Shown piece by piece: positions 2,306 to 26,403 of a DNA stretch of 64,000 bases; position 1 is the first letter of the stretch; each line of letters opens with the position of its first letter. Under the pieces are notes generated by a model. The model was not told where the DNA came from, made no database searches, and saw nothing but the letters and a program-made list of their open reading frames with translations. The position numbers were made by a program, and so were the translations under genes. The stretch lies in assembly GCA_040388375.1 (NCBI GenBank), contig JAZKBU010000007.1, positions 248,823-312,822 of the forward strand, in the 5' to 3' direction. Origin of the DNA: Bacteroidota bacterium. GTDB lineage: Bacteria > Bacteroidota > Bacteroidia > UKL13-3.

Positions 2306-2440
2306 TTCCTCATACATATATATTTTTTATTAGTTAAAAACTAAGGGCTTGTAAATTAATTTTACGGCCCTTTTTTATGCATATTGATGCTACATTTTTC
2401 TCTTGAAATTTATGATTCATTATACTTATCTTGCGCCTTT

Positions 2441-3232
2441 ATGGAAAAACAATTGAATTTAGAATACAATACCCAGCGTAGTAAATTAGTGTTGTCAGAA
2501 TATGGGCGTAGTATTCAAAAAATGGTTGAATATGCTACCCAGATTGAAGACGTGGAGAAACGCAAAAAAGTAGCCGATGAAATTTTAACTTTAATGGGTC
2601 AGTTGAATCCGCATTTGCGCGATATTGTTGACTACAAACACAAACTATACGATCATTTATTTATTATTTCCGATTTTAAACTTGATTTAGAATCACCATA
2701 TCCTAAACCAACTCCGGAGTCAATATACGTTAAACCACCGGCTATGGCCTATCCGCAAGAAAAAATTGTATATAGGTTTTATGGTAAAAATATTCAAAAC
2801 ATGATAGACCATGTAACTACTTTAGAAGACGGTAGTTTTAAAACGGCTTACATCAATGCTATTGGAAGTTTTATGAAAACCAATTGCCGCAACTGGAATG
2901 ACGAAGTATTGGGTGACGAACAGATTATGGCCCATCTGGAACAATTAAGCGGTGGTAAAATTGTTATCAACGATGCGGAGGATATCGATTTTAAAGCGCA
3001 GCAAATGCGCAGGTTAAACAATAATAATAACAATAGCCGCAGTAACAGTAACAACAATAATAACCGCAACAATAACAACCGTAATTTCAGAAACAACAAC
3101 AATAATAATAACGGTAATAACAGAAATAACAATAACCGCAATTCTAATAATAACAACCGCAACAACAATAGCGGTAGCGGAGCACCCGGCACAGACAGCG
3201 GTTACAGGAAATTTAACAGCAAGGATCGTTAA
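2441..3232 (+). CDS. DUF4290-family protein with a ~70-aa Asn/Arg/Ser-rich low-complexity C-terminal tail
   Basis: Conserved Bacteroidetes DUF4290-like N-terminal region (MEKQLNLEYNTQRSKLVLSEYGRSIQKMVEYA...). Start chosen at the internal ATG at 2441. The tail is encoded by an AAT/AAC-rich microsatellite-like tract at about 3008-3190. Confidence 0.65.
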   Translation: MEKQLNLEYNTQRSKLVLSEYGRSIQKMVEYATQIEDVEKRKKVADEILTLMGQLNPHLRDIVDYKHKLYDHLFIISDFKLDLESPYPKPTPESIYVKPPAMAYPQEKIVYRFYGKNIQNMIDHVTTLEDGSFKTAYINAIGSFMKTNCRNWNDEVLGDEQIMAHLEQLSGGKIVINDAEDIDFKAQQMRRLNNNNNNSRSNSNNNNNRNNNNRNFRNNNNNNNGNNRNNNNRNSNNNNRNNNSGSGAPGTDSGYRKFNSKDR

Positions 3233-6106: not shown

Positions 6107-6409
6107 TTCCAGCTATTACACAGTAGTAATTTTAGTGTTTAAGAAAGGTTTTTATGATTAAGTGCTATCACCCGAAAAATAACACCTGAAAACCTCTTTT
6201 TACAAATGTTTCGCCTGCTTTTCATTTGTAAAGTTGTTTGAAATTATCTCATTTAACACGCTTATTTTCAATAAATAACATATGTAAACCTGAACCAGCA
6301 CGCAGACCAGCTACTTTACATTTCTGCATAACACTTTTTACATTTGTTAAATAACATTACATTTGTAAATAGGCGGCTTTACAAATGTTTTAAGTCACTT
6401 ATAGTCAAG

Positions 6410-6868
6410 ATGGATGCACTGAATGAGCGCGTTTGCGCAATAATGGATAAGTTTAGCAGTTCTAAATCTGCTTTTGCTAATGAATTGGGAATTGGACTAC
6501 CCTCAATTACCCATATTACCAGTGGCAGGAACAAGCCTGGTATAGATATTTTGCAAAAAATACTACACACCTACCCGACCATAAATGCCGCTTGGCTACT
6601 CATAGGTAAAGGCGATATGATTACCCAGGAAAAACCCGGTATTGATATTGACAATGAATTGAATGCATTAATTTCATATACCCACGAATTAGAGCAAATA
6701 AAAGAAGAAAGCCAGCAAGTAATTACCTACCACAAGCTCTTACTGGACGAAATTAAACACCTGCATGAGTTAGACAAAAATATCATTGCCTCACATGCGC
6801 AAATAGACAAAGCCAAGCAAAAAATAGCCGAACAGGTGGCCGCTATTAAATCTAAACTAAAAAAATAG
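6410..6868 (+). CDS. Small DNA-binding (HTH) protein with a C-terminal coiled coil
   Basis: N-terminal helix-turn-helix-like segment (SAFANELGIGLPSITHITSGRNKPGIDILQKIL) followed by a charged helical tail. Start at the internal ATG at 6410. Confidence 0.55.
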   Translation: MDALNERVCAIMDKFSSSKSAFANELGIGLPSITHITSGRNKPGIDILQKILHTYPTINAAWLLIGKGDMITQEKPGIDIDNELNALISYTHELEQIKEESQQVITYHKLLLDEIKHLHELDKNIIASHAQIDKAKQKIAEQVAAIKSKLKK

Positions 6869-7782: not shown

Positions 7783-8901
7783 CTAAATAGCCATCCTGTA
7801 AGTTCTATGCACTTTCGTAGTTCTTGCACCCAGCTTATGGAACAAGCCGTGCATTTTAGGGTTAAAATCGCCAATCCAGGCCAATTCTGATGCATTTATT
7901 TCAGGATATTTCTGCATTGAGTCATATAGCTGAATAATCATGGCCGTTTCTATTCCTTTTTCCTGGTAAGCGGGAGCCACACCAAACACTTCTCCCCTAA
8001 TCCTCCTCACAGTTCCAAATGTTTTGTAAAAGAAAAACTTAATGATGCCCAGCCAGTTCATTTTCCCGTTTACATGTTTAAAAATTTCGTTGATGTCAAT
8101 TACACTTACATAAAAGCCAATAGGCTTCCCATTGGCATAAGCAAACCAAATGGCTTCTTCAATAATGATGGGTTTTAACTGCTTTAATTCAGCCATAATA
8201 CGAGCTTCATCCATAGGCACAAAATCCTCACGGTGTGCCCAGGCTTGATTGTACACTTCCACAAAGTCTAAAGCATATTTTTTAAGGTTATTCATCTTAA
8301 AATGCTCAAAACTATATATGGGGTTTGCCAATACGCGATCCGACATTTTACGGAAACGGGCCATATCGAAAGTTTGATAGGTTATTTCGCTGGTGGTTTG
8401 TTCCGTTAATTGTTTGAAGCCATAAGCTAAAAACAAGTTTTCGTAATAAGGCCAGTTGAAATTTTCTTTGTACGAAGGATTTTTAAATCCTTGCACCATC
8501 AATCCCCAAAAGGCATTTTTCTCGCCAAAATTAATAGGTCCGTCAACCATATTAATGCCTTTGGATTGCAGCCATTCAATAGCCGTATCAAATAACAATT
8601 TAGAAGCAGCGGTATCATCAATACATTCAAAAAAACCTATGCCTCCCGCCCTTTCATTCTCCTTAAAATTATCGCTATTGTAGAATGCCGCAATGCGCCC
8701 GATCGCTTTATTGTCGGCAGTTTTCAGTATCCACTGAGCCGACTCGCCTGTTTTAAACGCAAGGTTATGATTTGGGTCCAATACTTTTTTTATATCATTA
8801 TCCAAGGGGCAAACCCAGTCAGGATTGTTTTTATAAATGAGTCGATGTACGTTAATAAACTCAGCCAATAAAGAGGCTGAATTAACCGATATAATTTTCA
8901 T
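7783..8901 (-). CDS. GNAT-fold acyltransferase-like protein of unknown specificity (372 aa)
   Basis: C-terminal acyl-CoA-binding-like motif (GVAPAYQEKGIETAMI). Last gene of a three-gene minus-strand operon. Confidence 0.55.
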   Translation of the reverse strand: MKIISVNSASLLAEFINVHRLIYKNNPDWVCPLDNDIKKVLDPNHNLAFKTGESAQWILKTADNKAIGRIAAFYNSDNFKENERAGGIGFFECIDDTAASKLLFDTAIEWLQSKGINMVDGPINFGEKNAFWGLMVQGFKNPSYKENFNWPYYENLFLAYGFKQLTEQTTSEITYQTFDMARFRKMSDRVLANPIYSFEHFKMNNLKKYALDFVEVYNQAWAHREDFVPMDEARIMAELKQLKPIIIEEAIWFAYANGKPIGFYVSVIDINEIFKHVNGKMNWLGIIKFFFYKTFGTVRRIRGEVFGVAPAYQEKGIETAMIIQLYDSMQKYPEINASELAWIGDFNPKMHGLFHKLGARTTKVHRTYRMAI

Positions 8902-8958
8902 TTGTTAATGGGGCTATAAAAAACAAAAGCGATAGTTCTGTTATCGCTTTTGTGGGTA

Positions 8959-10065
8959 TTACATTCTTTTAAATAAATCCTTAATGGTGTCAATAGTCAC
9001 CTTATCTTTCCAATCAGTTCCAATGGCATGGTTCCACATGTGTGGCAAGTTATAAGCTACGTGAGCCATAGCGGTTATATCTTCGTCCGACCAGTTTTTA
9101 CTCAGACCTTGCGGCAAGGTAATATTATGTTTGGCCAACATGGTATTAAACTCTGCTACGCCTGCCGGGTAATAATCGGCCAGGTGTTGAAACGCCAAAC
9201 AGTTGGCATAACAATGTTTTTCGCCAAATATTTTGCTTAAGCCGTAACTCAAAGCATGACAAACACCTACTTCGCTATAAGTTAAACTTAAACCTCCCAT
9301 TAAAGAAGCAACCATTAACTTATCATCGTTTTCAGGGCTTTGTCCTGCGGCTTCGCTTGAATAAATATCGCGGCAAAGTTTTAAGCTTTGTTCGCCATAA
9401 GCCATGCTGTATGCATTGTTTAAAATACCATCACGGCTTTCAATACAATGTATAAAAGTATCCATTCCGGTATAAAACCATTTGTCAACCGGTACAGTCG
9501 CAGTAAGCTCAGAGTCCAGTATTACCTGATCAAATATCGTCCACTCGCATTTTAAACCCAATTTTTTCTCAGGCCCGGTTAGTACAGCCGTCATAGAGCA
9601 TTCGGCTCCTGTTCCTGAAATAGTAGGCACGCCTACATGGTATACACCCGGTTTTTTTATCAGGTTTAAACCCTGGTATTGTTGCGAGGGGCCTTCGTTG
9701 CAAAGCATTAAAGCCAATGCTTTGGCTATATCCATAATAGAACCTCCGCCAATACCAATTACACCGCTTGGTAAACCTTTGCCCGCTAATATTTCATCGC
9801 GTAACTGGTCTATTTGCTCAGTGGTTGGCTCATGCGGATCAACATCTATAAAGTAAACGGTATCTTCGGGTTTGTTTTGCAGTTTAGTGGCTAAACTTTT
9901 TCCTTTAAAGTAATTATCTACAATATATACAAAGTATTTATTGTTTTCGCTGCGTTTCGGGGCTATAATTTCATCCAGTTGGCTAAAACTACCACGACCG
10001 AAAACGGTTTTTTCTATACTCTTAAAATTTTTATGACTCATTATGTATGTAAACACAGGTTGCAT
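8959..10065 (-). CDS. Iron-containing (group III) alcohol dehydrogenase family oxidoreductase
   Basis: GGGSIMDIAKALA motif (GGGSxxDxAK) and a His-rich metal site (CHALSYGL...EKHCY). Middle gene of the operon. Confidence 0.75.
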   Translation of the reverse strand: MQPVFTYIMSHKNFKSIEKTVFGRGSFSQLDEIIAPKRSENNKYFVYIVDNYFKGKSLATKLQNKPEDTVYFIDVDPHEPTTEQIDQLRDEILAGKGLPSGVIGIGGGSIMDIAKALALMLCNEGPSQQYQGLNLIKKPGVYHVGVPTISGTGAECSMTAVLTGPEKKLGLKCEWTIFDQVILDSELTATVPVDKWFYTGMDTFIHCIESRDGILNNAYSMAYGEQSLKLCRDIYSSEAAGQSPENDDKLMVASLMGGLSLTYSEVGVCHALSYGLSKIFGEKHCYANCLAFQHLADYYPAGVAEFNTMLAKHNITLPQGLSKNWSDEDITAMAHVAYNLPHMWNHAIGTDWKDKVTIDTIKDLFKRM

Positions 10066-10095
10066 GAACTTGTTTGCAACCTGTGTTTTGTATTG

Positions 10096-11301
10096 TTAAG
10101 CTGTTTGTGATAATGCGGCTTGTATAGAAGTGCTCATTTTAGCTACTAAAGCTGTTAGCTCCTCTTGTGTCCAAGTGGCTTTAATACCGAATGATATTAA
10201 ACGGCCTACTGTTTCCTGTGTTTTTGGTATATCAAGGTTTTTGTAATCTTGCGGAGCCCCTAATAACTGTACGTTTGTTTTAGCAGCTACACGGCCTTCT
10301 TTAATATGATCCCATTGGTTAATAAAATGGTACATATTGGTAAACCAGTAGTTAAAGCCGGCTACACCATTTTTGTTAAACTCTTCTACAGTTGCTTTGG
10401 CAGCAGCTGTATTGGGCATTAATATATTTAAGAAGGTAGCTGAGTCGCCATTGGCATCAGGAATGGTGGCAAAGTTTACCCCTGCAATTTTTCCTAACTC
10501 GGCCATCATGTATTTTTTGTGTTTGTTGTTGGCTTCGCGAATCATAGGCACTCTGCGTGTTTGCGCCAAACCCACTGCTGCGTGCAACTCTGAAATGCGG
10601 TAATTAAAACCTAAAACCGGATGGTTTTCCATACCTCTGTTGCTGCCAACGTGGTCATGTCCGTGGTCGGCATAATTATCGGCTAATTTATAAGCGGTTT
10701 CATCGTTGGTTACCATTACGCCACCTTCGCCTGCGGTGGCTATTTTAAAGAAATCAAAACTATAGCAACCTGTTTTACCAAACAAACCTGTTGAAGTTCC
10801 TTTGTAGCTGGCTGCCATGGCCTGGCCTGCATCTTCTACCAAAACAAGGTTATGCTCTTTCACTACGGCCATTATTTCGTCCATTTGAGCCATTTGACCA
10901 CACATGTGTACCAAAACAATGGCTTTGGTTTTAGGTGTAATGGCTTTTTTAATACCTGCTGCGCTTAAGCAAAGGGTTTCATCTATTTCGGCAAAAACAG
11001 GTAATGCACCTGCAAATATAACGGCTTCAACAGTGGCTATATAGGTAAATGGAGGTACTATTACTTCATCGCCTGCGCCAACACCTGCTGCGGCTAATGC
11101 ACAACTTACGGCAGTACTGCCACTGCTTACGGCATGTGCATATTTAGCACCTACCAGTTTGGCTACTTCTGCTTCAAACTCTTTTGCTTTCCATATATTG
11201 TTGCGTTGTGCATCGTGGTTATAACGAAATAAAATACCTGTTTCTAATACATCGTTTACTTCTTTGCGCTCTTCTGCGCCAAAATATTCGTTTCCTGCCA
11301 T
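10096..11301 (-). CDS. DegT/DnrJ/EryC1/StrS-family PLP-dependent aminotransferase
   Basis: Length and conserved segments of sugar/cyclitol aminotransferases (family identified by the translation's overall match; no lysine motif pinpointed). First gene of the operon. Confidence 0.8.
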   Translation of the reverse strand: MAGNEYFGAEERKEVNDVLETGILFRYNHDAQRNNIWKAKEFEAEVAKLVGAKYAHAVSSGSTAVSCALAAAGVGAGDEVIVPPFTYIATVEAVIFAGALPVFAEIDETLCLSAAGIKKAITPKTKAIVLVHMCGQMAQMDEIMAVVKEHNLVLVEDAGQAMAASYKGTSTGLFGKTGCYSFDFFKIATAGEGGVMVTNDETAYKLADNYADHGHDHVGSNRGMENHPVLGFNYRISELHAAVGLAQTRRVPMIREANNKHKKYMMAELGKIAGVNFATIPDANGDSATFLNILMPNTAAAKATVEEFNKNGVAGFNYWFTNMYHFINQWDHIKEGRVAAKTNVQLLGAPQDYKNLDIPKTQETVGRLISFGIKATWTQEELTALVAKMSTSIQAALSQTA

Positions 11302-11390
11302 GTTTGTTAAATATTATTATGAATTAAAATTTTTATTGTACAAATATAATTTTTGGGTTGATTAAATGAAATGGGAATTGATGGATGGTT

Positions 11391-11424
11391 TATTTGTTAA
11401 CAGGTTGACTTGTTAACAGGTTGA
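11391..11424. promoter_or_regulatory. Tandem 17-bp direct repeat (TTGTTAACAGGTTGA x2) upstream of the DegT/FeADH/GNAT operon
   Basis: tttgttaacaggttgacttgttaacaggttgaaagg, about 90-125 nt upstream of the operon's first start codon. It contains GTTAAC palindromic cores. Confidence 0.4.
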
Positions 11425-11476
11425 AAGGGCCATTCAACTATTCAACATATAAACCAATCAACCCACCCTCAAAAAA

Positions 11477-11515
11477 AAAACCTGACCGAATTACTTCAAT
11501 CAGGGATTTTTTATA
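11477..11515 (-). terminator. Probable (bidirectional) terminator after gdhA
   Basis: Short stem CCCTGA/TCAGG(G) flanked by an A10 run on one side and a T6 run on the other. On the minus strand the hairpin is followed by T10. Confidence 0.5.
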
Positions 11516-11529
11516 GTTATTGGTTGTTA

Positions 11530-12807
11530 TTACAAACCAAATTTACCTCTTAATTTTTCTACTTCAGCTACGCGTTGTATTGATACTGCGTAAGCTGCTA
11601 TACGCATTGGTATATTGTATTTTAATGATGCTGCGTAAACACCTTCAAAAGCTGTTTTCATTACGCGGTCTGCTCTGCGGTATACACGCTCTTCTGTCCA
11701 GTAGTAACCTAAACGGTTTTGTACCCATTCAAAGTAACTTACAGTTACTCCACCTGCGTTGGCTAAAATATCAGGCACTACCATAATACCTTTTTCGTTT
11801 AATATATGGTCAGCACTGGCACTTGTTGGGCCATTAGCACCTTCTACTATAACTTTGGCTTTTATGCGGCTTGCGTTTTCTTCTGTAATTTGGTCTTCCA
11901 TAGCTGCCGGAACCAACACGGTAACATCTAATTCCAATAACTCTGCATTGGTAATTTTAGCCGCTTTATAACCTTCTAAAGTTCCGTTGTTTCCATCGCG
12001 GTAAGCAATGGCTGCAACTACATCTATACCTTCAGCATTGTAGTAAGCTCCGCTTACATCGCTAATAGCTACTATTTTTAAACCTTGTTGTGCTATTAAT
12101 TTAGCGCTGATTGAACCTACGTTACCAAAACCTTGTACCGCACAGGTAGCACCTATTGGCGAAATGCCTAATTTGCTTAAAGCGGCTCTGGTTGAAACCA
12201 TCACACCACGACCTGTAGCTTCCACACGGCCTAATGAACCACCTAAAACTATTGGTTTACCTGTAACTACTGCAGGCGATGAATGACCTACTAGTTTTGA
12301 ATACTCATCCATAATCCACGCCATTTCTTGCGGGCCTGTTCCCATATCAGGAGCAGGTATATCTTTATCGGGTCCAAATACATCAACCATTAAGTCGGTA
12401 TATGAACGGGTTAATCTTTCTAATTCGCCTTTGCTCATGCTGCGGGGGTCGCATTTAATACCACCTTTACCACCACCATAAGGAATACCTACTACGGCAC
12501 ATTTCCATGTCATCCATGCAGCCAAAGCTTTTACTTCGTCCAAGTGTACATCCATGCTGTAACGGATACCACCTTTACTTGGGCCTAGGTTAGCATTGTG
12601 TACTACCCTGAAACCTTCAAACACTTTCACTTTTCCATCGTCCATGGTAACAGGAATATTTACTATTACTGCTTTTTGTGGAGCTATTAATACGTTGTAA
12701 TCGCTTTCGTCAAGACCAATAATTTTAGCTGCCTGGTCAAATCTTTGTTTCATTGACTCGAATGGATTTTCTGAGCCATGTTTAATCACGTTATCTTTTT
12801 GTGACAT
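11530..12807 (-). CDS. gdhA: Glutamate dehydrogenase
   Basis: Glu/Leu/Phe/Val dehydrogenase signature (KGGIRYSMDVHLDEVKALAAWMTWKCAVVGIPYGGGKGGI) and a Rossmann fold (GFGNVGS). Confidence 0.9.
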   Translation of the reverse strand: MSQKDNVIKHGSENPFESMKQRFDQAAKIIGLDESDYNVLIAPQKAVIVNIPVTMDDGKVKVFEGFRVVHNANLGPSKGGIRYSMDVHLDEVKALAAWMTWKCAVVGIPYGGGKGGIKCDPRSMSKGELERLTRSYTDLMVDVFGPDKDIPAPDMGTGPQEMAWIMDEYSKLVGHSSPAVVTGKPIVLGGSLGRVEATGRGVMVSTRAALSKLGISPIGATCAVQGFGNVGSISAKLIAQQGLKIVAISDVSGAYYNAEGIDVVAAIAYRDGNNGTLEGYKAAKITNAELLELDVTVLVPAAMEDQITEENASRIKAKVIVEGANGPTSASADHILNEKGIMVVPDILANAGGVTVSYFEWVQNRLGYYWTEERVYRRADRVMKTAFEGVYAASLKYNIPMRIAAYAVSIQRVAEVEKLRGKFGL

Positions 12808-18825: not shown

Positions 18826-21800
18826 TTAAATAAAAAGCCTATAATCATAAGTCTTTCCTTCAAATCTAGAAAGCAATTTTCCAATTCGAGCAATTTGATT
18901 TGAAGAATCAATTGTCGATGGTAACTTAGAATATAAGTCTAATGAATTCCAATTCATTTTTGTTAGTCCTAATATCTCTGTTGCAATAGTTTGTATATTA
19001 GACTCGCCATAATGTTTGGTTATTTTGACTGGCGCAGGGATACTTCTACCGCCCAAATAAAACTTATAGTTTTGTTGTCTTACAGAAGGAACAATGCCAT
19101 GAGTCCATAATAATGCTGTATGCTTGTTTGTGACAATACACGTACCTCTCGAAATTGGAAACTTGTCAATCTGAAGTTCATTTTGATAAACACTCATAGC
19201 TAGGAAACGTGCATCTACTTCATAATTGATTTCAACTAAATCTATTTTCTTAATCCCAGCTTTATTTAGACTAGCTTTAATACCATTTATTTCATCTTCC
19301 GTAAATTTTGTTCTTTTGTGTATTACTACTCTTTCTGGAAGTTTATCAAGTGACTGATAAAACAATTCACGAATGGATACTCCAAATTGAAATGCATCTT
19401 TATAGGATAAATATGGGTTAAGTTGCTTGTCAAGAAAGTAGTTATCAATTTTTGAAAGTCTATACTTTAATCCTTGCCCGTTTGAATCGTAAATATGACT
19501 ACAGCCAATTACAATTTCAGATTTATCTTGAATTCGTGAAACACTATACCCGATTCCCGCATAAGCTGTATTTTTCTCTTGATTATTCAAAATCCAAGGT
19601 GTTCTAAGCGACTTAACATAAAAAGATAATGATAACCACCAATAGATTTGACACTTTAGGGTGTCATTAAGTGTTTCTTCCCTAATAAGTTGTGTCGAAA
19701 TACCTCGAGAAGCTGAAAATGCTTTAATATAGTCGTGTAAATCAAAACTTTCCCCTTGATTGATATAATTTTCAAATAATTGCCATTCATTAGGAATAAA
19801 AATTACGATAGTACTCTGACTTTGTGTATTCGCAATCTGTTCAATTTTGCTTGTGATTAGACGAACTAGTTTTATTGCATTTTCGTGGCTTTCCAAACCA
19901 TTTTCTGGATTGAATTCAATGCCAATCCATTTTTCGCTACTATCAAATAATGGAATATTAATTGGAATATTAAAAATGGAAGAGAAGCCAGGGTAATCAA
20001 TTAAATAATCAGGATTAATATTTTCTGTTGAGTGCTTTACTTGTAATTTTGATAGGAAATCATAAAATCTGTTCGAGTATTCTTTCCCACAAATTACTGA
20101 AAGATTTATTTCATTTGAATGAATTACTCCATTTAGATTTACATCAAATGGCCTGTTATTCACCAAACCTCTCATTGGATGATAGTCCTTAAACTCTACA
20201 TCAGTAGCCACATTTCTAAAAACTAATTGGGGCTCTAAAAATTGTACCCCTTTAAATTGAGTTTGTCTCTTATCATAATTATTTGGTGTATATGACCTAA
20301 AGTTAGGGTCAAGCACATTTATTTCTCCAAATGCTGTATTCGATGAAATTTGAAATTCAAAACCTGTTCCAGATGAAATTGGGTATTCAAATTTGATTCG
20401 TTGATTACTAAATAATGTGGCATTCCAAAAGTCTAAAACTTCATCATATTTATTGTTGTATAATTTTTCTAGTTGATTTTTACTTACTTGTTGTTTCTGT
20501 GTTTTTGTTATTTCCTCAGAAGATGAAAGATAAACGGTTGGAGTAAAGGTTAAATAAGCAAAGCCCGCGTTTTTATCAAAATAGAATGACAAGTAGATAG
20601 ATTTATGAACACCAATATTACCAAATTGCCTTTCATTTTTCTTGATCCAAATCTTATCTTTAAGATTTGTTTCAATTGTACTGTTAGAACTGAAATGTTT
20701 CAGGATTGCTTGAAGCATTAAGGATTTAAATGCGGAAACTCTCTCAATATCAAATTTTGAAATTGGCTCTCTTTTTATTTCGGATTTTAGATGCTTTTTA
20801 AAGGCATTGCTAATTTCAGAAAGAGTACCTAAAGCAAATACCTTTTTCTTGAAAGGTACAGCACAAATATTTGTATCTTTCGTAACTGCTTTTAAAAACG
20901 CCCAAGGCTTTTCTTCTTTATAATCAATTTCAAATTGGAATATCTCTTTAGGAAATACAATTGGATGAAGATTACTTTTGATGTATTTGTCTGTTCTTGA
21001 AAAACTCAAACTAAATTCAGTTTTGAAATATTCTTCATCATCAGAAACTTCCAAGGCTTCTTGAATTTTTTTAGAAATGGTTTGATTGTCTTCAAATGCT
21101 GATTTTGATAAATGAATCAACGTTTTATCAAATCCATCTGTTGCTACGTAATAAGCCTCTCTTCCCGACTGTCTAATTTGCAAAATAAGTTCGAGCACTT
21201 CTTTATTTATTTGGTCTCCATAGCCACACCAATATAATCTTCCTGCACCATTTTTGCTAAATGCAATTTTAATTGCTTGCATTAATGAATTATCTCTCCC
21301 ACTATAACCAATTACAATTAGATTTTTATCAATATGATAATTTGCTAAATGCTCTTTGAACGTTTCATTTTGATTATCTAATTCTTTTTCCGTGTTTTTT
21401 AATGTGGAAAATTTATAGTCACCGTGTAGTGCAATTGATAATAGTTCTTTACTACTTTGATTGCGGTAAATTTTATCAGTATTGTCAAGCGTAATCTCTA
21501 TTGGTGTTAATTTATTTTGATGTGCTGAACGTACCGTTAAGCCATCGAAGTTCGTAGTCCAAACTGATTTGACTATTCCATATTCCGCTAAAAGACAGAG
21601 TAATTTATAGCCAATATAAGGCTCTTTATTCTCTATTAGACTTAAAAAATATTTTCGTCTATCTTCAGCAATAGGATAAGCCTTTTCTGCATAAAAAGAA
21701 TATTCTTCGGGTGAGTCTAGTAATGGATACTCGCCTTGATTATCTAACCAAGTCTGTATACTTTTTCTAACAGCTTCTTCTTTATAGTTTTTATAAAAGT

Positions 21801-21984
21801 CAGCTGAATTAATATTTTTAGATAGATATATATCTTTTTTCCATTCCCAAATACAATCATAGGCTGTTTGTATCCCAGAACTTATTGAAGTTCCTGCTCC
21901 CAATAAGAAGGAATGAGGGACGTCTATATTCCTTTTAAAAGATCTTAAAAAAGCATCGTATTCAAGATGTATATTTTCTACCAT
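18826..21984 (-). CDS. Single-chain SIR2-APAZ-short prokaryotic Argonaute fusion (short-pAgo immune effector; catalytically inactive PIWI)
   Basis: N-terminal SIR2-type NADase motifs (FLLGAGTSISSGI; TTNFDGL; LHGDYK). Middle APAZ-sized region (~300 aa). MID-like 5'-end-binding Y..K...Q...K pattern (HDYIKAFSASRGISTQLI...YVKSL). PIWI first strand GIGYSV, with the catalytic Asp replaced by Gly. Ago-type C-terminal segment (GGRSIPAPVKITKHY). Confidence 0.8.
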   Translation of the reverse strand: MVENIHLEYDAFLRSFKRNIDVPHSFLLGAGTSISSGIQTAYDCIWEWKKDIYLSKNINSADFYKNYKEEAVRKSIQTWLDNQGEYPLLDSPEEYSFYAEKAYPIAEDRRKYFLSLIENKEPYIGYKLLCLLAEYGIVKSVWTTNFDGLTVRSAHQNKLTPIEITLDNTDKIYRNQSSKELLSIALHGDYKFSTLKNTEKELDNQNETFKEHLANYHIDKNLIVIGYSGRDNSLMQAIKIAFSKNGAGRLYWCGYGDQINKEVLELILQIRQSGREAYYVATDGFDKTLIHLSKSAFEDNQTISKKIQEALEVSDDEEYFKTEFSLSFSRTDKYIKSNLHPIVFPKEIFQFEIDYKEEKPWAFLKAVTKDTNICAVPFKKKVFALGTLSEISNAFKKHLKSEIKREPISKFDIERVSAFKSLMLQAILKHFSSNSTIETNLKDKIWIKKNERQFGNIGVHKSIYLSFYFDKNAGFAYLTFTPTVYLSSSEEITKTQKQQVSKNQLEKLYNNKYDEVLDFWNATLFSNQRIKFEYPISSGTGFEFQISSNTAFGEINVLDPNFRSYTPNNYDKRQTQFKGVQFLEPQLVFRNVATDVEFKDYHPMRGLVNNRPFDVNLNGVIHSNEINLSVICGKEYSNRFYDFLSKLQVKHSTENINPDYLIDYPGFSSIFNIPINIPLFDSSEKWIGIEFNPENGLESHENAIKLVRLITSKIEQIANTQSQSTIVIFIPNEWQLFENYINQGESFDLHDYIKAFSASRGISTQLIREETLNDTLKCQIYWWLSLSFYVKSLRTPWILNNQEKNTAYAGIGYSVSRIQDKSEIVIGCSHIYDSNGQGLKYRLSKIDNYFLDKQLNPYLSYKDAFQFGVSIRELFYQSLDKLPERVVIHKRTKFTEDEINGIKASLNKAGIKKIDLVEINYEVDARFLAMSVYQNELQIDKFPISRGTCIVTNKHTALLWTHGIVPSVRQQNYKFYLGGRSIPAPVKITKHYGESNIQTIATEILGLTKMNWNSLDLYSKLPSTIDSSNQIARIGKLLSRFEGKTYDYRLFI

Positions 21985-23254: not shown

Positions 23255-23424
23255 ACGATTTTTAATTTATTGGTTGTTATAACGTTTTTGATAGCTGTTT
23301 TATTATTTTAAGCTGCTATAAAATGTTTGTTATATGGCTTGTTCAGGGGTATGAATTTGATATGTGGTTTTATTTTATTTTGATTGGCATTGGAAGGAGT
23401 TTGTTTGGGATGTAGAAGCTTATG

Positions 23425-23795
23425 TTTATGCTTTGATGGCATTTGTTTGATTCCCGATATGGTTTGTTTGACTGTTGGTATTGTTTGTTTACTCTTTGAT
23501 TGCCTTTGTTTAAGGTTTGACTGCATTTGTGTCACTTTTGATAGCGTATGGGTTAACTCTTGATTTTGTTTGTTTGACCTTTGATGGCGTATGTTTAACC
23601 TTTGGTTGACTTTGCATCAGGTGCGGCTGAATTTGTGTCACTTTCAATGGCTTATGTTTGACTTTAAAAGTGATTTGTTTGACTCTTGATGGCTTATGTT
23701 TAACCTTTGATGGCATTTGTTTAAGGCTCGACTGAATTTGTGTCATATTGAGCGGCTTATGTTTGACCCTTGATGTGATTTGTTTGGGATTGGGT
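23425..23795. repeat. Degenerate 21-bp tandem repeat array (about 17 units) with a 105-bp (5-unit) higher-order periodicity
   Basis: Units such as ctttgatggcatttgtttaag, ctttgatggcgtatgtttaac and tcttgatggcttatgtttaac. Every fifth unit is the variant ...gactg(c/a)atttgtgtca(c/t). The units are contiguous with no spacers. Confidence 0.8.
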
Positions 23796-23810
23796 GGGGT
23801 TTGCACCGCA

Positions 23811-23880
23811 TTTCATACGGTGTATCTACCGTATTTTATACGGTGTATCTACCGTATTTCATACGGTGTTATTGAAATTA
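23811..23880. promoter_or_regulatory. Two and a half tandem copies of a 23-bp unit carrying the palindrome TACGGT-N6-ACCGTA (operator-like)
   Basis: tttcatacggtgtatctaccgta / ttttatacggtgtatctaccgta / tttcatacggtgtt. 6-bp inverted arms separated by 6 bp, which fits a dimeric HTH binding site. Confidence 0.5.
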
Positions 23881-25467: not shown

Positions 25468-26403
25468 TTACTCTATTATTGTTATCCCTGTTAAATTTGC
25501 CTGGTTGTTTTTTAAAAAGGCATAGGTAATTTTATCTACTTTACAGTCAATAAACTGTACGCGTTTAAATTTTCCATTATACTTAAAAAAGGTATTTAAA
25601 ATGGTTGCATTCTGAAATGTAACATTATAAAATGTACAGTTTTCAAATTGGCAGTTCTCTAAAGTGCCTTCAAAAACAATATCGCTAATACCTGCATTTT
25701 TAAATGATGTAAATTTCCACACGGCATTTTTCACCACATTACTTTCAAAATTTACTCCGGTAAACTCAGCCCCCGAAAAATTCGTTTCAGAAAAATCGCA
25801 TTTGCCAATATTGCTTTTTAAAAATGTAGCATCTATCAATAAACAATTATTAAACTGGTTATTTAACAAATTAGATGATTGAATTTTGCTGTTTCTAATG
25901 TCTGAAGAGGAGAAATCGCACATTTCAATATTATTGCTTCCAAGAATAAGCCCCGACAAATCAGCGTTTGCAAACTTGCAGTTCTTCATATTGGAAGAGC
26001 TGAATTTTTCCTTTAAGTTCTTTAAGCCTGAAAAGTCAGCGTCAACCCAATTCCCTTTGGACATATCCCAACTCCAATCAAATTTGTTCTTTGCTTTAGC
26101 CTCCGGAATTTCTACTGTTTGGTTGTCAAACTGCTCGTTGGTTGTTGTTGAAATTTCATCAGCCTTAAAACTGTCAGAGAAATAGTTAAGATCAACTCCA
26201 AAAATTTCAGCCAGTCGGTTTAATGTGGTAATGTCGGGCATGGATTCACCACGTTCCCATTTTCCAACTGCTTGTGAACTGATTGATACTTGCTGGGCAA
26301 GTTCTGCTTGTGAAAGATTCGTTTTCTTTCTTGCTGTGGCAATTTTATTGCCAATTGTTTTTGAATTTAGCATCTTATGTTTTTTAAAATTTTGATGCTG
26401 CAA
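25468..26403 (-). CDS. XRE-family HTH domain fused to a pentapeptide-repeat domain
   Basis: HTH segment (NLSQAELAQQVSISSQAVGKWERGESMPDITTLNRLAEIF) followed by many A(D/N)(L/F)xx pentapeptide repeats (ADFSG, ADLSG, CDFSS, ATFLK, CDFSE, AEFTG...). Confidence 0.75.
   Translation of the reverse strand: MQHQNFKKHKMLNSKTIGNKIATARKKTNLSQAELAQQVSISSQAVGKWERGESMPDITTLNRLAEIFGVDLNYFSDSFKADEISTTTNEQFDNQTVEIPEAKAKNKFDWSWDMSKGNWVDADFSGLKNLKEKFSSSNMKNCKFANADLSGLILGSNNIEMCDFSSSDIRNSKIQSSNLLNNQFNNCLLIDATFLKSNIGKCDFSETNFSGAEFTGVNFESNVVKNAVWKFTSFKNAGISDIVFEGTLENCQFENCTFYNVTFQNATILNTFFKYNGKFKRVQFIDCKVDKITYAFLKNNQANLTGITIIE

What the first reader, a model, noticed from the sequence alone, without database searches (positions are those of the whole stretch)
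7783..11430. Conserved three-gene operon (DegT-type aminotransferase, Fe-alcohol dehydrogenase, GNAT-fold acyltransferase) with a tandem 17-bp repeat in its promoter region
A sugar/cyclitol-type PLP aminotransferase, a group III iron alcohol dehydrogenase (GGGSxxDxAK) and a 372-aa GNAT-fold protein are tightly linked and co-directional. That composition (oxidise or reduce, transaminate, N-acylate) suggests synthesis of an N-acylated amino-alcohol, amino-sugar or amino-lipid head group, but no known pathway is recognisable. Upstream, TTGTTAACAGGTTGA is repeated twice in tandem (11391-11424), which suggests a dedicated regulator site.
Basis: inference. Interest (0 to 1): 0.5.

Follow-up and report, generated by a model that had tools for sequence, protein, structure and literature searches.

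The report
Kdo8N sugar genes plus unrelated acetyltransferase
Two of the three genes are clear relatives of KdnA and KdnB, the known enzyme pair that turns the lipopolysaccharide sugar Kdo into its 8-amino form, while the third gene is a common Bacteroidota acetyltransferase-like gene of unknown role that lies beside them only in one narrow lineage.

Summary
The three co-directional minus-strand genes are real and their domain calls are right, but the statement that no known pathway is recognisable is wrong. The aminotransferase (10096-11301) and the Fe-ADH (8959-10041) match over their full length the solved Shewanella oneidensis KdnA (E 8e-128, 49% identity) and KdnB (E 1.5e-121, 52%). These enzymes oxidise Kdo at C8 and transaminate it to Kdo8N.

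In other Bacteroidota this pair sits inside Kdo clusters (waaA-kdnA-kdnB-kdsA-...-kdsB). KdnA lies directly upstream of KdnB in 65 of 67 loci, and kdsA lies downstream in 42 of 60.

The 372-aa protein is a tandem-GNAT fold enzyme from a very large Bacteroidota family. It lies next to kdnAB in 1 of 80 GNAT-centred loci and 2 of 60 KdnB-centred loci, all close relatives of this window. A terminator-like hairpin separates it from kdnB.

The repeat is an exact 15-mer present twice with period 16, not 17. It forms part of an imperfect palindrome seen only here and in the nearest relative, whereas the Bacteroidetes-type promoter next to it is conserved more widely.

Verdict: a new member of a known pathway, with no demonstrated third step or dedicated operator. 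The one mildly notable point is that Kdo8N is described as Shewanella-specific.

The parts
10096..11301 (-). kdnA: PLP-dependent 8-amino-3,8-dideoxy-manno-octulosonate (Kdo8N) transaminase homologue, 401 aa
   Evidence: Pfam DegT_DnrJ_EryC1 5e-77. phmmer against PDB 5K8B (S. oneidensis KdnA) gives E 8e-128 over residues 1-386, 48.7% identity; the next solved protein is at 1.7e-48. The Lys of SFDFFK (K186) aligns with SFDSVK of 5K8B. It lies directly upstream of kdnB in 65/67 related loci.
8959..10041 (-). kdnB: group III (Fe-ADH fold) Kdo 8-oxidase homologue. The start is most likely at 10041 (360 aa); the ORF is open up to 10065.
   Evidence: Pfam Fe-ADH plus ADH_Fe_C. phmmer against PDB 5K8C (KdnB) gives E 1.5e-121 and against 3RF7 gives 7.7e-122, 52% identity; the next family is at 3.7e-23. 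GGGS at 106 and D202/H206/H270/H284 are identical to the aligned 5K8C residues. Homologues are 359-360 aa, 75-92% identical, and named Kdo 8-oxidase by JGI.
7783..8901 (-). Tandem-GNAT fold protein of unknown substrate, 372 aa. It belongs to a large Bacteroidota family and is probably not part of the Kdo8N pathway.
11341..11371 (-). Likely kdnA promoter of Bacteroidetes type: -7 box TATATTTG (11348-11341) and a -33-like TTTC (11371-11368), 19 nt apart
   Evidence: It is the only TAnnTTTG on the minus strand in the regions upstream of the three genes. The block CATTTyATTTAAyCA..CAAAAATTATATTTGTrCAAT is conserved in L085, L001, L088, L092 and L093. The promoter consensus itself comes from established knowledge of Bacteroidetes promoters and was not tested here.
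11394..11424 (.). Exact tandem duplication of TTGTTAACAGGTTGA (period 16). Each copy contains the 8-bp palindrome TGTTAACA.
   Evidence: In L085 the two copies differ at 3 of 15 positions, and the motif is absent upstream of kdnA in L086, L001, L088, L092 and L093.
11354..11465 (.). Imperfect palindrome that contains the tandem repeat. It has six GTTGA/TCAAC words: three in one orientation followed by three in the other.
   Evidence: Inverted repeats I1, I2 and I6. The word count is 6 against 0.45 expected. The DNA fold z-score is -2.8 here. The homologous site in L085 is a perfect 22-bp stem with z -6.9. The arm sequence occurs nowhere else in the window or the fetched loci.
11471..11504 (-). 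Intrinsic terminator of the upstream glutamate dehydrogenase gene (11530-12807)
   Evidence: 10-bp stem followed by T10; dG -15.8 kcal/mol, z -3.8.
10051..10088 (-). 14-bp hairpin in the kdnA-kdnB spacer with no T tract, so not terminator-like
   Evidence: dG -20.8 kcal/mol, z -4.9. L001 has a different hairpin at the same place.
8913..8953 (-). Terminator-like hairpin (12-bp stem) plus T tract between the kdnB stop codon and the GNAT start codon
   Evidence: dG -14.8 kcal/mol, z -6.6. It is conserved in L085, replaced by a different short hairpin in L086, and absent in L001.

Best explanation
The locus encodes the two-enzyme Kdo8N branch of lipopolysaccharide core synthesis.

KdnB is a group III metal- and NAD-binding alcohol-dehydrogenase-fold enzyme that oxidises the C8 hydroxyl of free Kdo to the aldehyde. 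KdnA is a DegT-type PLP aminotransferase that converts the aldehyde to 8-amino-3,8-dideoxy-D-manno-octulosonate. Kdo8N is then presumably activated by KdsB and transferred to lipid IVA by WaaA; both genes are encoded elsewhere in this genome.

kdnA and kdnB are transcribed from a Bacteroidetes-type promoter at about 11341-11371, and transcription largely ends at the hairpin at 8953-8913.

The downstream 372-aa gene is the lineage's copy of a widespread Bacteroidota tandem-GNAT, probably an acyl-CoA-dependent N-acyltransferase of unknown substrate. It came to lie next to kdnB through a rearrangement that displaced kdsA, and it has no demonstrated role in the pathway.

The tandem 15-mer is a derived part of a lineage-specific palindrome upstream of the promoter and is not a conserved operator.

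Shown here: homology, motif conservation, gene-neighbourhood statistics and the predicted fold. Inferred: the enzymatic activities, the fate of Kdo8N, the transcript boundaries and the independence of the GNAT gene.
For: KdnA and KdnB homology is full-length and far above the next families. Identities are 48.7% and 52%, and the cofactor, metal and PLP-lysine positions are conserved.

In relatives with 71-93% identical KdnB, the pair is embedded in Kdo clusters. NCBIfam confirms kdsA (346 bits against a cutoff of 242) and kdsB, and gives WaaA-like and KdsC-like hits below cutoff. The census gives KdnA upstream in 65/67 loci, kdsA downstream in 42/60 and GNAT downstream in 2/60.

In the GNAT-centred census, 79/80 loci lack kdnAB within 8 kb. 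The neighbours there are AhpC/TSA-like, SDR, ArgRS, PfkB and T9SS cargo genes, with no constant partner.

The terminator-like hairpin after kdnB is supported. The promoter block is conserved while the repeat is not.

The function of KdnA/KdnB in Shewanella (E. coli made Kdo8N2-lipid A, in vitro assays, polymyxin-sensitive mutant) is summarised in PMC4402001.
Against: No Kdo genes (kdsA, kdsB, waaA) lie within the 64-kb window, so the link to LPS here rests on homology and on the gene context in relatives.

Kdo8N has been reported chemically only from Shewanella (PMC4402001, PMC6357163), so its presence in any Bacteroidota LPS is a prediction.

The trio stays together in relatives even though both flanks are rearranged. 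No TAnnTTTG promoter motif lies within 250 bp upstream of the GNAT gene. L001 has no hairpin between kdnB and the GNAT gene. Co-transcription, and even a functional link within this lineage, therefore cannot be excluded.
Confidence: 0.8

Rival explanations
1. A genuine three-step pathway in this lineage: KdnB oxidises, KdnA transaminates, and the tandem-GNAT enzyme N-acetylates or N-acylates the 8-amino group of Kdo8N (free, as CMP-Kdo8N, or on lipid A), giving an N-acyl-Kdo8N in the LPS core.
Against: The same GNAT family is present across Bacteroidota at unrelated positions (79/80 loci). KdnB's usual downstream partner is kdsA, and GNAT follows in only 2/60 loci. A terminator-like hairpin separates the genes in the window and in L085. 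The kdnB-GNAT spacers vary from 26 to about 540 nt, with inserted ORFs. Structural identity to the amino-sugar enzymes is only 10-13%. In Shewanella the Kdo8N amine is free (C8 at about 44-45 ppm, PMC6357163).
Confidence: 0.12
2. The Bacteroidota KdnA/KdnB homologues act on a substrate other than Kdo, such as another ulosonic acid or a polyol, so the product is not Kdo8N.
For: Identity to the characterised enzymes is only about 50%. There is no chemical report of Kdo8N outside Shewanella. The window contains no Kdo genes.
Against: The homologues are tightly embedded between waaA and kdsA/kdsB in many independent Bacteroidota contigs. The matches are full-length with no rival family near them.
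Confidence: 0.08
3. The tandem 15-mer or palindrome upstream of kdnA is the operator of a dedicated transcription factor that controls kdnAB.
For: Each copy carries the 8-bp palindrome TGTTAACA. GTTGA/TCAAC words are enriched 13-fold in the 231-bp spacer and arranged three forward, three reverse. The site lies about 45-75 bp upstream of the -7 box. A related structure is kept in L085 as a perfect 22-bp palindrome.
Against: It is absent from the kdnA upstream regions of L086, L001, L088, L092 and L093, which keep the promoter block. Between the window and L085 the repeat is less conserved than the flanking promoter, with 3 of 15 substitutions and a neighbouring indel. No regulator gene is adjacent. 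The weak-HTH ORF at 6344-6868 lies beyond the Nfu gene on the other strand. The element could equally belong to the 3' end of gdh, as a second hairpin after its terminator.
Confidence: 0.2

Closest known systems
[quoted passage not shown]
   Same: Full-length alignment, 52% identity, E 1.5e-121. Same length of about 360 aa, same GGGSxMDxAK nucleotide motif, and the same D/H/H/H positions. It lies directly next to a KdnA homologue.
   Different: The host is a Bacteroidota organism (the closest genome hit is a freshwater Bacteroidetes MAG), not Shewanella. Activity was not tested. In this window it is not next to any Kdo gene.
KdnA, 8-amino-3,8-dideoxy-alpha-D-manno-octulosonate transaminase of S. 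oneidensis (PDB 5K8B)
   Same: 48.7% identity over 386 residues, E 8e-128. DegT fold and a conserved PLP-lysine position.
   Different: Activity and amino donor were not tested here. Gene order is kdnA then kdnB, with a 54-nt spacer that carries a hairpin.
Bacteroidota Kdo clusters waaA-kdnA-kdnB-kdsA-(FSA-CBS)-(KdsC-like)-kdsB, for example Chitinophagaceae bacterium IBVUCB1 (L084)
   Same: KdnA is 75% and KdnB 77% identical to the window proteins, with the same kdnA-kdnB order and the same strand.
   Different: In the window's lineage kdsA and the rest of the cluster are not downstream; a tandem-GNAT gene is there instead.
Tandem-GNAT N-acetyltransferases: Clostridium acetobutylicum glucosamine N-acetyltransferase (5KF1), mycothiol synthase MshD (1OZP), clavulanate ORF14/CBG (2WPW), MAB_4324 (7Q3A)
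   Different: Identity is 9-14%. There is no sequence-level match, even with a profile. The protein is about 50-80 residues longer, and the substrate is unknown. The last position of motif A is Glu rather than Gly/Ala, and a Phe sits where many GNATs have the catalytic Tyr (inference).

Membership tests
KdnB (Kdo 8-oxidase, group III Fe-ADH fold) | Full-length sequence similarity to characterised KdnB, clearly above other Fe-ADH subfamilies | tested here: met
   E 1.5e-121 (5K8C) and 7.7e-122 (3RF7) against 3.7e-23 for the next solved Fe-ADH; 52% identity over 354 columns
KdnB (Kdo 8-oxidase, group III Fe-ADH fold) | Nucleotide-binding GGGSxxDxAK motif and the four metal-ligand positions (D-x3-H ... 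H-x13-H) of group III ADHs | tested here: met
   GGGSIMDIAKA from residue 106. D202, H206, H270 and H284 are identical in the alignment to 5K8C and invariant in 19 Bacteroidota homologues. Their assignment as metal ligands comes from general knowledge of the family.
KdnB (Kdo 8-oxidase, group III Fe-ADH fold) | Adjacent to kdnA and associated with Kdo/LPS-core genes | tested here: met
   kdnA lies directly upstream here and in 65/67 related loci, and kdsA lies downstream in 42/60 relatives. The association with Kdo genes is seen in relatives only and not within this window.
KdnB (Kdo 8-oxidase, group III Fe-ADH fold) | Oxidises Kdo at C8 | not testable with these tools
   Requires an enzyme assay.
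KdnA (Kdo8N transaminase, DegT/AAT fold type I) | Full-length similarity to characterised KdnA, above other sugar aminotransferases | tested here: met
   E 8e-128 (5K8B) against 1.7e-48 for the next (perosamine synthetase); 48.7% identity over 386 residues. No NCBIfam equivalog reaches its cutoff.
KdnA (Kdo8N transaminase, DegT/AAT fold type I) | PLP-binding lysine | tested here: met
   K186 in CYSFDFFKIATAGEGG aligns with the Lys in CYSFDSVKTITCGEGG of 5K8B.
KdnA (Kdo8N transaminase, DegT/AAT fold type I) | Produces Kdo8N from 8-oxo-Kdo | not testable with these tools
   Requires an enzyme assay or LPS chemistry.
Tandem-GNAT acyl-CoA N-acyltransferases | Two GNAT-fold domains in one polypeptide | tested here: met
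Tandem-GNAT acyl-CoA N-acyltransferases | Acyl-CoA-binding motif A (Q/R-x-x-G-x-G/A) in the active domain | tested here: inconclusive
   The C-terminal domain has YQEKGIE (Q313-x-x-G316-x-E), with G316 invariant in 35 homologues, but Glu in place of the last Gly/Ala. The Pfam GNAT hit is just above cutoff at 23.9 against 20.7 bits.
Three-gene operon kdnA-kdnB-GNAT as a conserved functional unit | Co-localisation of all three genes across diverse genomes | tested here: not met
   GNAT is next to kdnAB in 1/80 GNAT-centred loci and 2/60 KdnB-centred loci, all from the window's own narrow lineage.
Three-gene operon kdnA-kdnB-GNAT as a conserved functional unit | Single transcription unit with no internal terminator | tested here: inconclusive
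   A terminator-like hairpin with a T tract lies between kdnB and the GNAT gene. On the other hand, no TAnnTTTG motif lies within 250 bp upstream of the GNAT gene, and L001 has no hairpin there.
Dedicated operator upstream of kdnA | Conservation of the repeat in orthologous promoter regions | tested here: not met
   The repeat is present, in diverged form, only in L085. It is absent in L086, L001, L088, L092 and L093, although the promoter block is kept.
   Only Fe-ADH models hit, with no DHQ_synthase hit at E up to 0.01. The best solved relatives are KdnB and then alcohol dehydrogenases.

The most novel reading that the evidence does not exclude
In this freshwater Bacteroidota lineage the tandem-GNAT enzyme has been recruited to the Kdo8N genes and N-acylates the 8-amino group, so that the LPS inner core carries an N-acyl-Kdo8N, a sugar not described so far. 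A more likely and less dramatic reading is that Kdo8N itself, regarded as a hallmark of Shewanella, is widespread in Bacteroidota LPS. I put that at about 0.7.
Probability: 0.1. Interest if true: 0.55.

Novelty: new member of a known kind. Interest (0 to 1): 0.3.

Why it matters
The locus itself is explained by a known two-enzyme pathway, so it does not point to a new amino-lipid or amino-sugar route.

What remains of interest is the distribution. The accessible literature calls Kdo8N exclusive to, or a hallmark of, Shewanella (PMC4402001, PMC6357163). Yet highly conserved KdnA/KdnB pairs sit inside Kdo clusters of many Bacteroidota. The Kdo 8-amine contributes to polymyxin and bile-salt tolerance in Shewanella (PMC4402001). 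If the Bacteroidota genes are active, the LPS inner core of many environmental Bacteroidota carries a cationic Kdo, which would affect outer-membrane charge and resistance to cationic peptides.

The tandem-GNAT family has more than 7500 members and no known function. It is a separate open question.

Tried and rejected
1. DHQS/aminocyclitol reading: rejected, because only Fe-ADH models and KdnB match.
2. Phosphonate, sulfoacetaldehyde and other Fe-ADH equivalogs (SarD, PsrA, ErcA): all fall far below their NCBIfam cutoffs.
3. Sequence-level identification of the GNAT protein: no NCBIfam hit, no PDB sequence hit, and no hit with a 35-sequence profile.
4. Conserved neighbours of the GNAT family as a clue to function: only lineage-local neighbours were found (AhpC/TSA-like in 16 loci, SDR in 25, PfkB kinase in 13, ArgRS in 8), with no informative partner.
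5. Search for Kdo genes in the window: none.
6. Rfam scan of the window: no family, so no riboswitch in the leader.
7. Test of whether the repeat or palindrome is a dispersed element (REP or MITE): there are no other copies in the window or in the 171 loci fetched by then.
8. The sigma-70-type promoter scan gave no more hits than shuffled sequence (13 against 13.0) and was disregarded in favour of the Bacteroidetes -7 motif.
9. The afdb50 fold library was unavailable.
10. The primary paper by Gattis et al. 2013 (PMC3610993) is not held, so I relied on the review PMC4402001.
The attempt to show both genes on one MAG contig returned other contigs.


Full report
**1. Observation**

The interval holds three co-directional minus-strand ORFs: 10096-11301 (401 aa), 8959-10065 (368 aa) and 7783-8901 (372 aa).
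- DegT_DnrJ_EryC1 at 5e-77.
- Fe-ADH at 7e-25 plus ADH_Fe_C.
- A weak GNAT hit at 5e-5 (23.9 bits, cutoff 20.7) on residues 248-358 of the third protein.

No NCBIfam equivalog reaches its cutoff for any of the three. Homologues of the second protein are 359-360 aa, so its real start is probably the second Met at 10041.

The repeat is an exact 15-mer, TTGTTAACAGGTTGA, at 11394-11408 and 11410-11424. The period is 16 rather than 17.

**2. Identity of genes 1 and 2**

Comparison with all PDB sequences gives a decisive result.
- The aminotransferase matches 5K8B, the 8-amino-3,8-dideoxy-alpha-D-manno-octulosonate transaminase KdnA of Shewanella oneidensis. E is 8e-128 over residues 1-386, and the next protein is at 1.7e-48.
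[quoted passage not shown] The next Fe-ADH is at 3.7e-23.

Identities are 48.7% and 52%. The following positions are identical in the alignments: the nucleotide motif GGGSIMDIAKA, the D202/H206/H270/H284 positions of KdnB, and the Lys of SFDFFK in KdnA. The first two sets are also invariant among 19 Bacteroidota KdnB homologues.

According to the review PMC4402001, these two genes were identified in S. oneidensis by Gattis et al. Expressed in E. coli, they gave Kdo8N2-lipid A. [quoted passage not shown] Loss of the genes increased sensitivity to polymyxin and bile salts.

**3. Support from gene context elsewhere**

The KdnB search returned 7983 proteins at E no higher than 1e-20. The best 120 are 75-92% identical, and many are named 'Kdo 8-oxidase' by JGI or come from Bacteroidia, Flavipsychrobacter, Cyclobacteriaceae and Chitinophagaceae.

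In L081-L084, L091 and L174 the pair lies in Kdo clusters. For L084, NCBIfam confirms kdsA (346 bits, cutoff 242) and kdsB. It gives WaaA-like and KdsC-like hits below cutoff.

A census of 80 KdnB-centred metagenome loci gave these counts:

| Feature | Count |
|---|---|
| KdnA directly upstream on the same strand | 65 of 67 loci with room |
| kdsA within 1.5 kb downstream | 42 of 60 |
| The GNAT gene downstream | 2 of 60 |
| Neither kdsA nor GNAT downstream | 16 of 60 |

The window itself has no kdsA, kdsB or waaA.

**4. The third gene**

The 372-aa protein has more than 7500 homologues, the named ones from Bacteroidota, and no sequence-level match to a solved structure, even with a profile.

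The C-terminal domain carries a motif-A-like YQEKGIE and a motif-B-like NPKMHGLFHKLGA (the motif reading is my inference). An acyl-CoA-dependent N-acyltransferase is therefore the most likely activity, with an unknown substrate.

**5. Is the GNAT gene part of the pathway?**

Of 80 genome loci that hold a GNAT homologue, only L001 has kdnAB within 8 kb. L001 is the closest relative, with GNAT 71%, KdnA 93% and KdnB 94% identical. The other 79, at 39-58% identity and spanning Chitinophagales, Cytophagales and Sphingobacteriales, do not. Their neighbours are an AhpC/TSA-like gene, an SDR, ArgRS, a PfkB kinase and T9SS cargo genes, with no constant partner.

The trio is kept in L085 (GNAT 90%), L086/L087 (77%), L088/L089 (70%), L092 and L093. 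It persists there even though both flanks differ and small ORFs are inserted between the genes in L088.

L091 is a MAG whose GNAT homologue is 58% identical and lies elsewhere, and it has kdnA-kdnB-kdsA. L086 shares the DUF4842 upstream neighbour with L091. This suggests that kdnAB stayed in place while the downstream kdsA was exchanged for the GNAT gene in the ancestor of this lineage.

Evidence on co-transcription is mixed:
- A 12-bp hairpin with a T tract follows kdnB (8953-8913; dG -14.8, z -6.6). It is conserved in L085 but not in L001 or L086.
- No TAnnTTTG motif occurs within 250 bp upstream of the GNAT start.

I therefore regard the GNAT gene as an unrelated neighbour and give a role in the pathway a probability of about 0.1.

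**6. The upstream region**

On the minus strand the order is:
- the gdh stop codon (11530);
- the gdh terminator (11504-11471);
- an imperfect palindrome at 11465-11354 that contains the tandem 15-mers;
- a -33-like TTTC (11371-11368);
- a -7 box TATATTTG (11348-11341);
- the kdnA ATG (11301).

The promoter block is conserved in L085, L001, L088, L092 and L093. The 15-mer occurs upstream of kdnA only in the window and in L085.

In L085 the two copies differ at 3 of 15 positions, and the first copy is the right arm of a perfect 22-bp palindrome (z -6.9). The window's exact tandem repeat thus looks like a derived, homogenised state of that palindrome. GTTGA/TCAAC words are enriched (6 against 0.45 expected). 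The element is not dispersed elsewhere.

The relatives that lack it also have different upstream genes, so the sequence may belong to the gdh side of the junction. An operator function is possible (about 0.2) but not supported by conservation. No Rfam family is present.

**7. Comparison with what is known, and novelty**

The locus is a new member of the KdnA/KdnB kind. Automatic annotation already names such Bacteroidota proteins.

The accessible literature describes Kdo8N as found exclusively in Shewanella, or as its hallmark (PMC4402001, PMC6357163). Searches for Kdo8N, kdnA/kdnB and the enzyme name found no paper on Bacteroidota. The prediction that many Bacteroidota make Kdo8N is therefore reasonable, testable and modestly interesting.

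The three-gene 'N-acylated amino-sugar' pathway and the dedicated operator are not supported.

Noticed in passing
L084 10019-11032, and the gene downstream of kdsA in 35 of the 80 loci L092-L171: At the position where KdsD (arabinose-5-phosphate isomerase) would be expected in Bacteroidota Kdo clusters, there is a 337-aa protein. Its N-terminal domain is a fructose-6-phosphate-aldolase/transaldolase-type domain (Pfam TAL_FSA 8e-34; NCBIfam FSA 5e-48, below cutoff). Only its C-terminal CBS pair resembles KdsD/KpsF/GutQ. It may be an alternative route to arabinose-5-phosphate.
   Followed up: partly
window 23400-23870: A dense iteron-like array lies in an intergenic region. It has about ten units of roughly 21 bp (TTTGTTTGACyCTTGATGGCkTATG), a 105-bp higher-order repeat, and then three 23-bp units ACCGTATTTCATACGGTGTATCT, each with an internal inverted repeat. 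The flanking ORFs are a CarboxypepD_reg-domain protein and a 196-aa protein with no Pfam hit.
   Followed up: no
window 18826-21984 (-) and 25468-26403 (-): A 1052-aa protein with a SIR2_2 domain, which may be defence-related, and a 311-aa HTH_3 plus pentapeptide-repeat protein lie on either side of the iteron-like array.
   Followed up: no
window 10051-10088 (-); L001 6789-6886: The kdnA-kdnB spacer carries a stable hairpin without a T tract in the window (14 bp, dG -20.8, z -4.9). L001 has an unrelated long-range inverted repeat (GCCACAGATT...AATCTGTGGC) at the same place. In L088/L089 a DUF2442 gene is inserted there.
   Followed up: partly
L002-L021, L034, L172, L173 (upstream of the GNAT homologue): In the closer out-group lineages the tandem-GNAT gene is divergently paired with an AhpC/TSA (thioredoxin-like) gene about 60-200 bp away, with an SDR gene behind it. 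It is often followed by Por_Secre_tail (T9SS cargo) genes. This is the only recurrent context found for this uncharacterised family.
   Followed up: partly
window 8959-10065: The mechanical ORF for kdnB is 8 codons longer than its homologues. L085 was called with the same 368-aa form, whereas most database homologues are 359-360 aa.
   Followed up: yes
window 3017-3170: AACAAT-type hexamer and 21-33-bp repeats lie inside the ORF at 2384-3232. This is probably a low-complexity, Asn/Gln-rich protein segment.
   Followed up: no
PMC8510873 (literature): A Leptospira interrogans comparative-genomics paper also lists a 'octulosonate 8-oxidase' annotation. KdnB-like genes are therefore annotated outside both Shewanella and Bacteroidota.
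   Followed up: no
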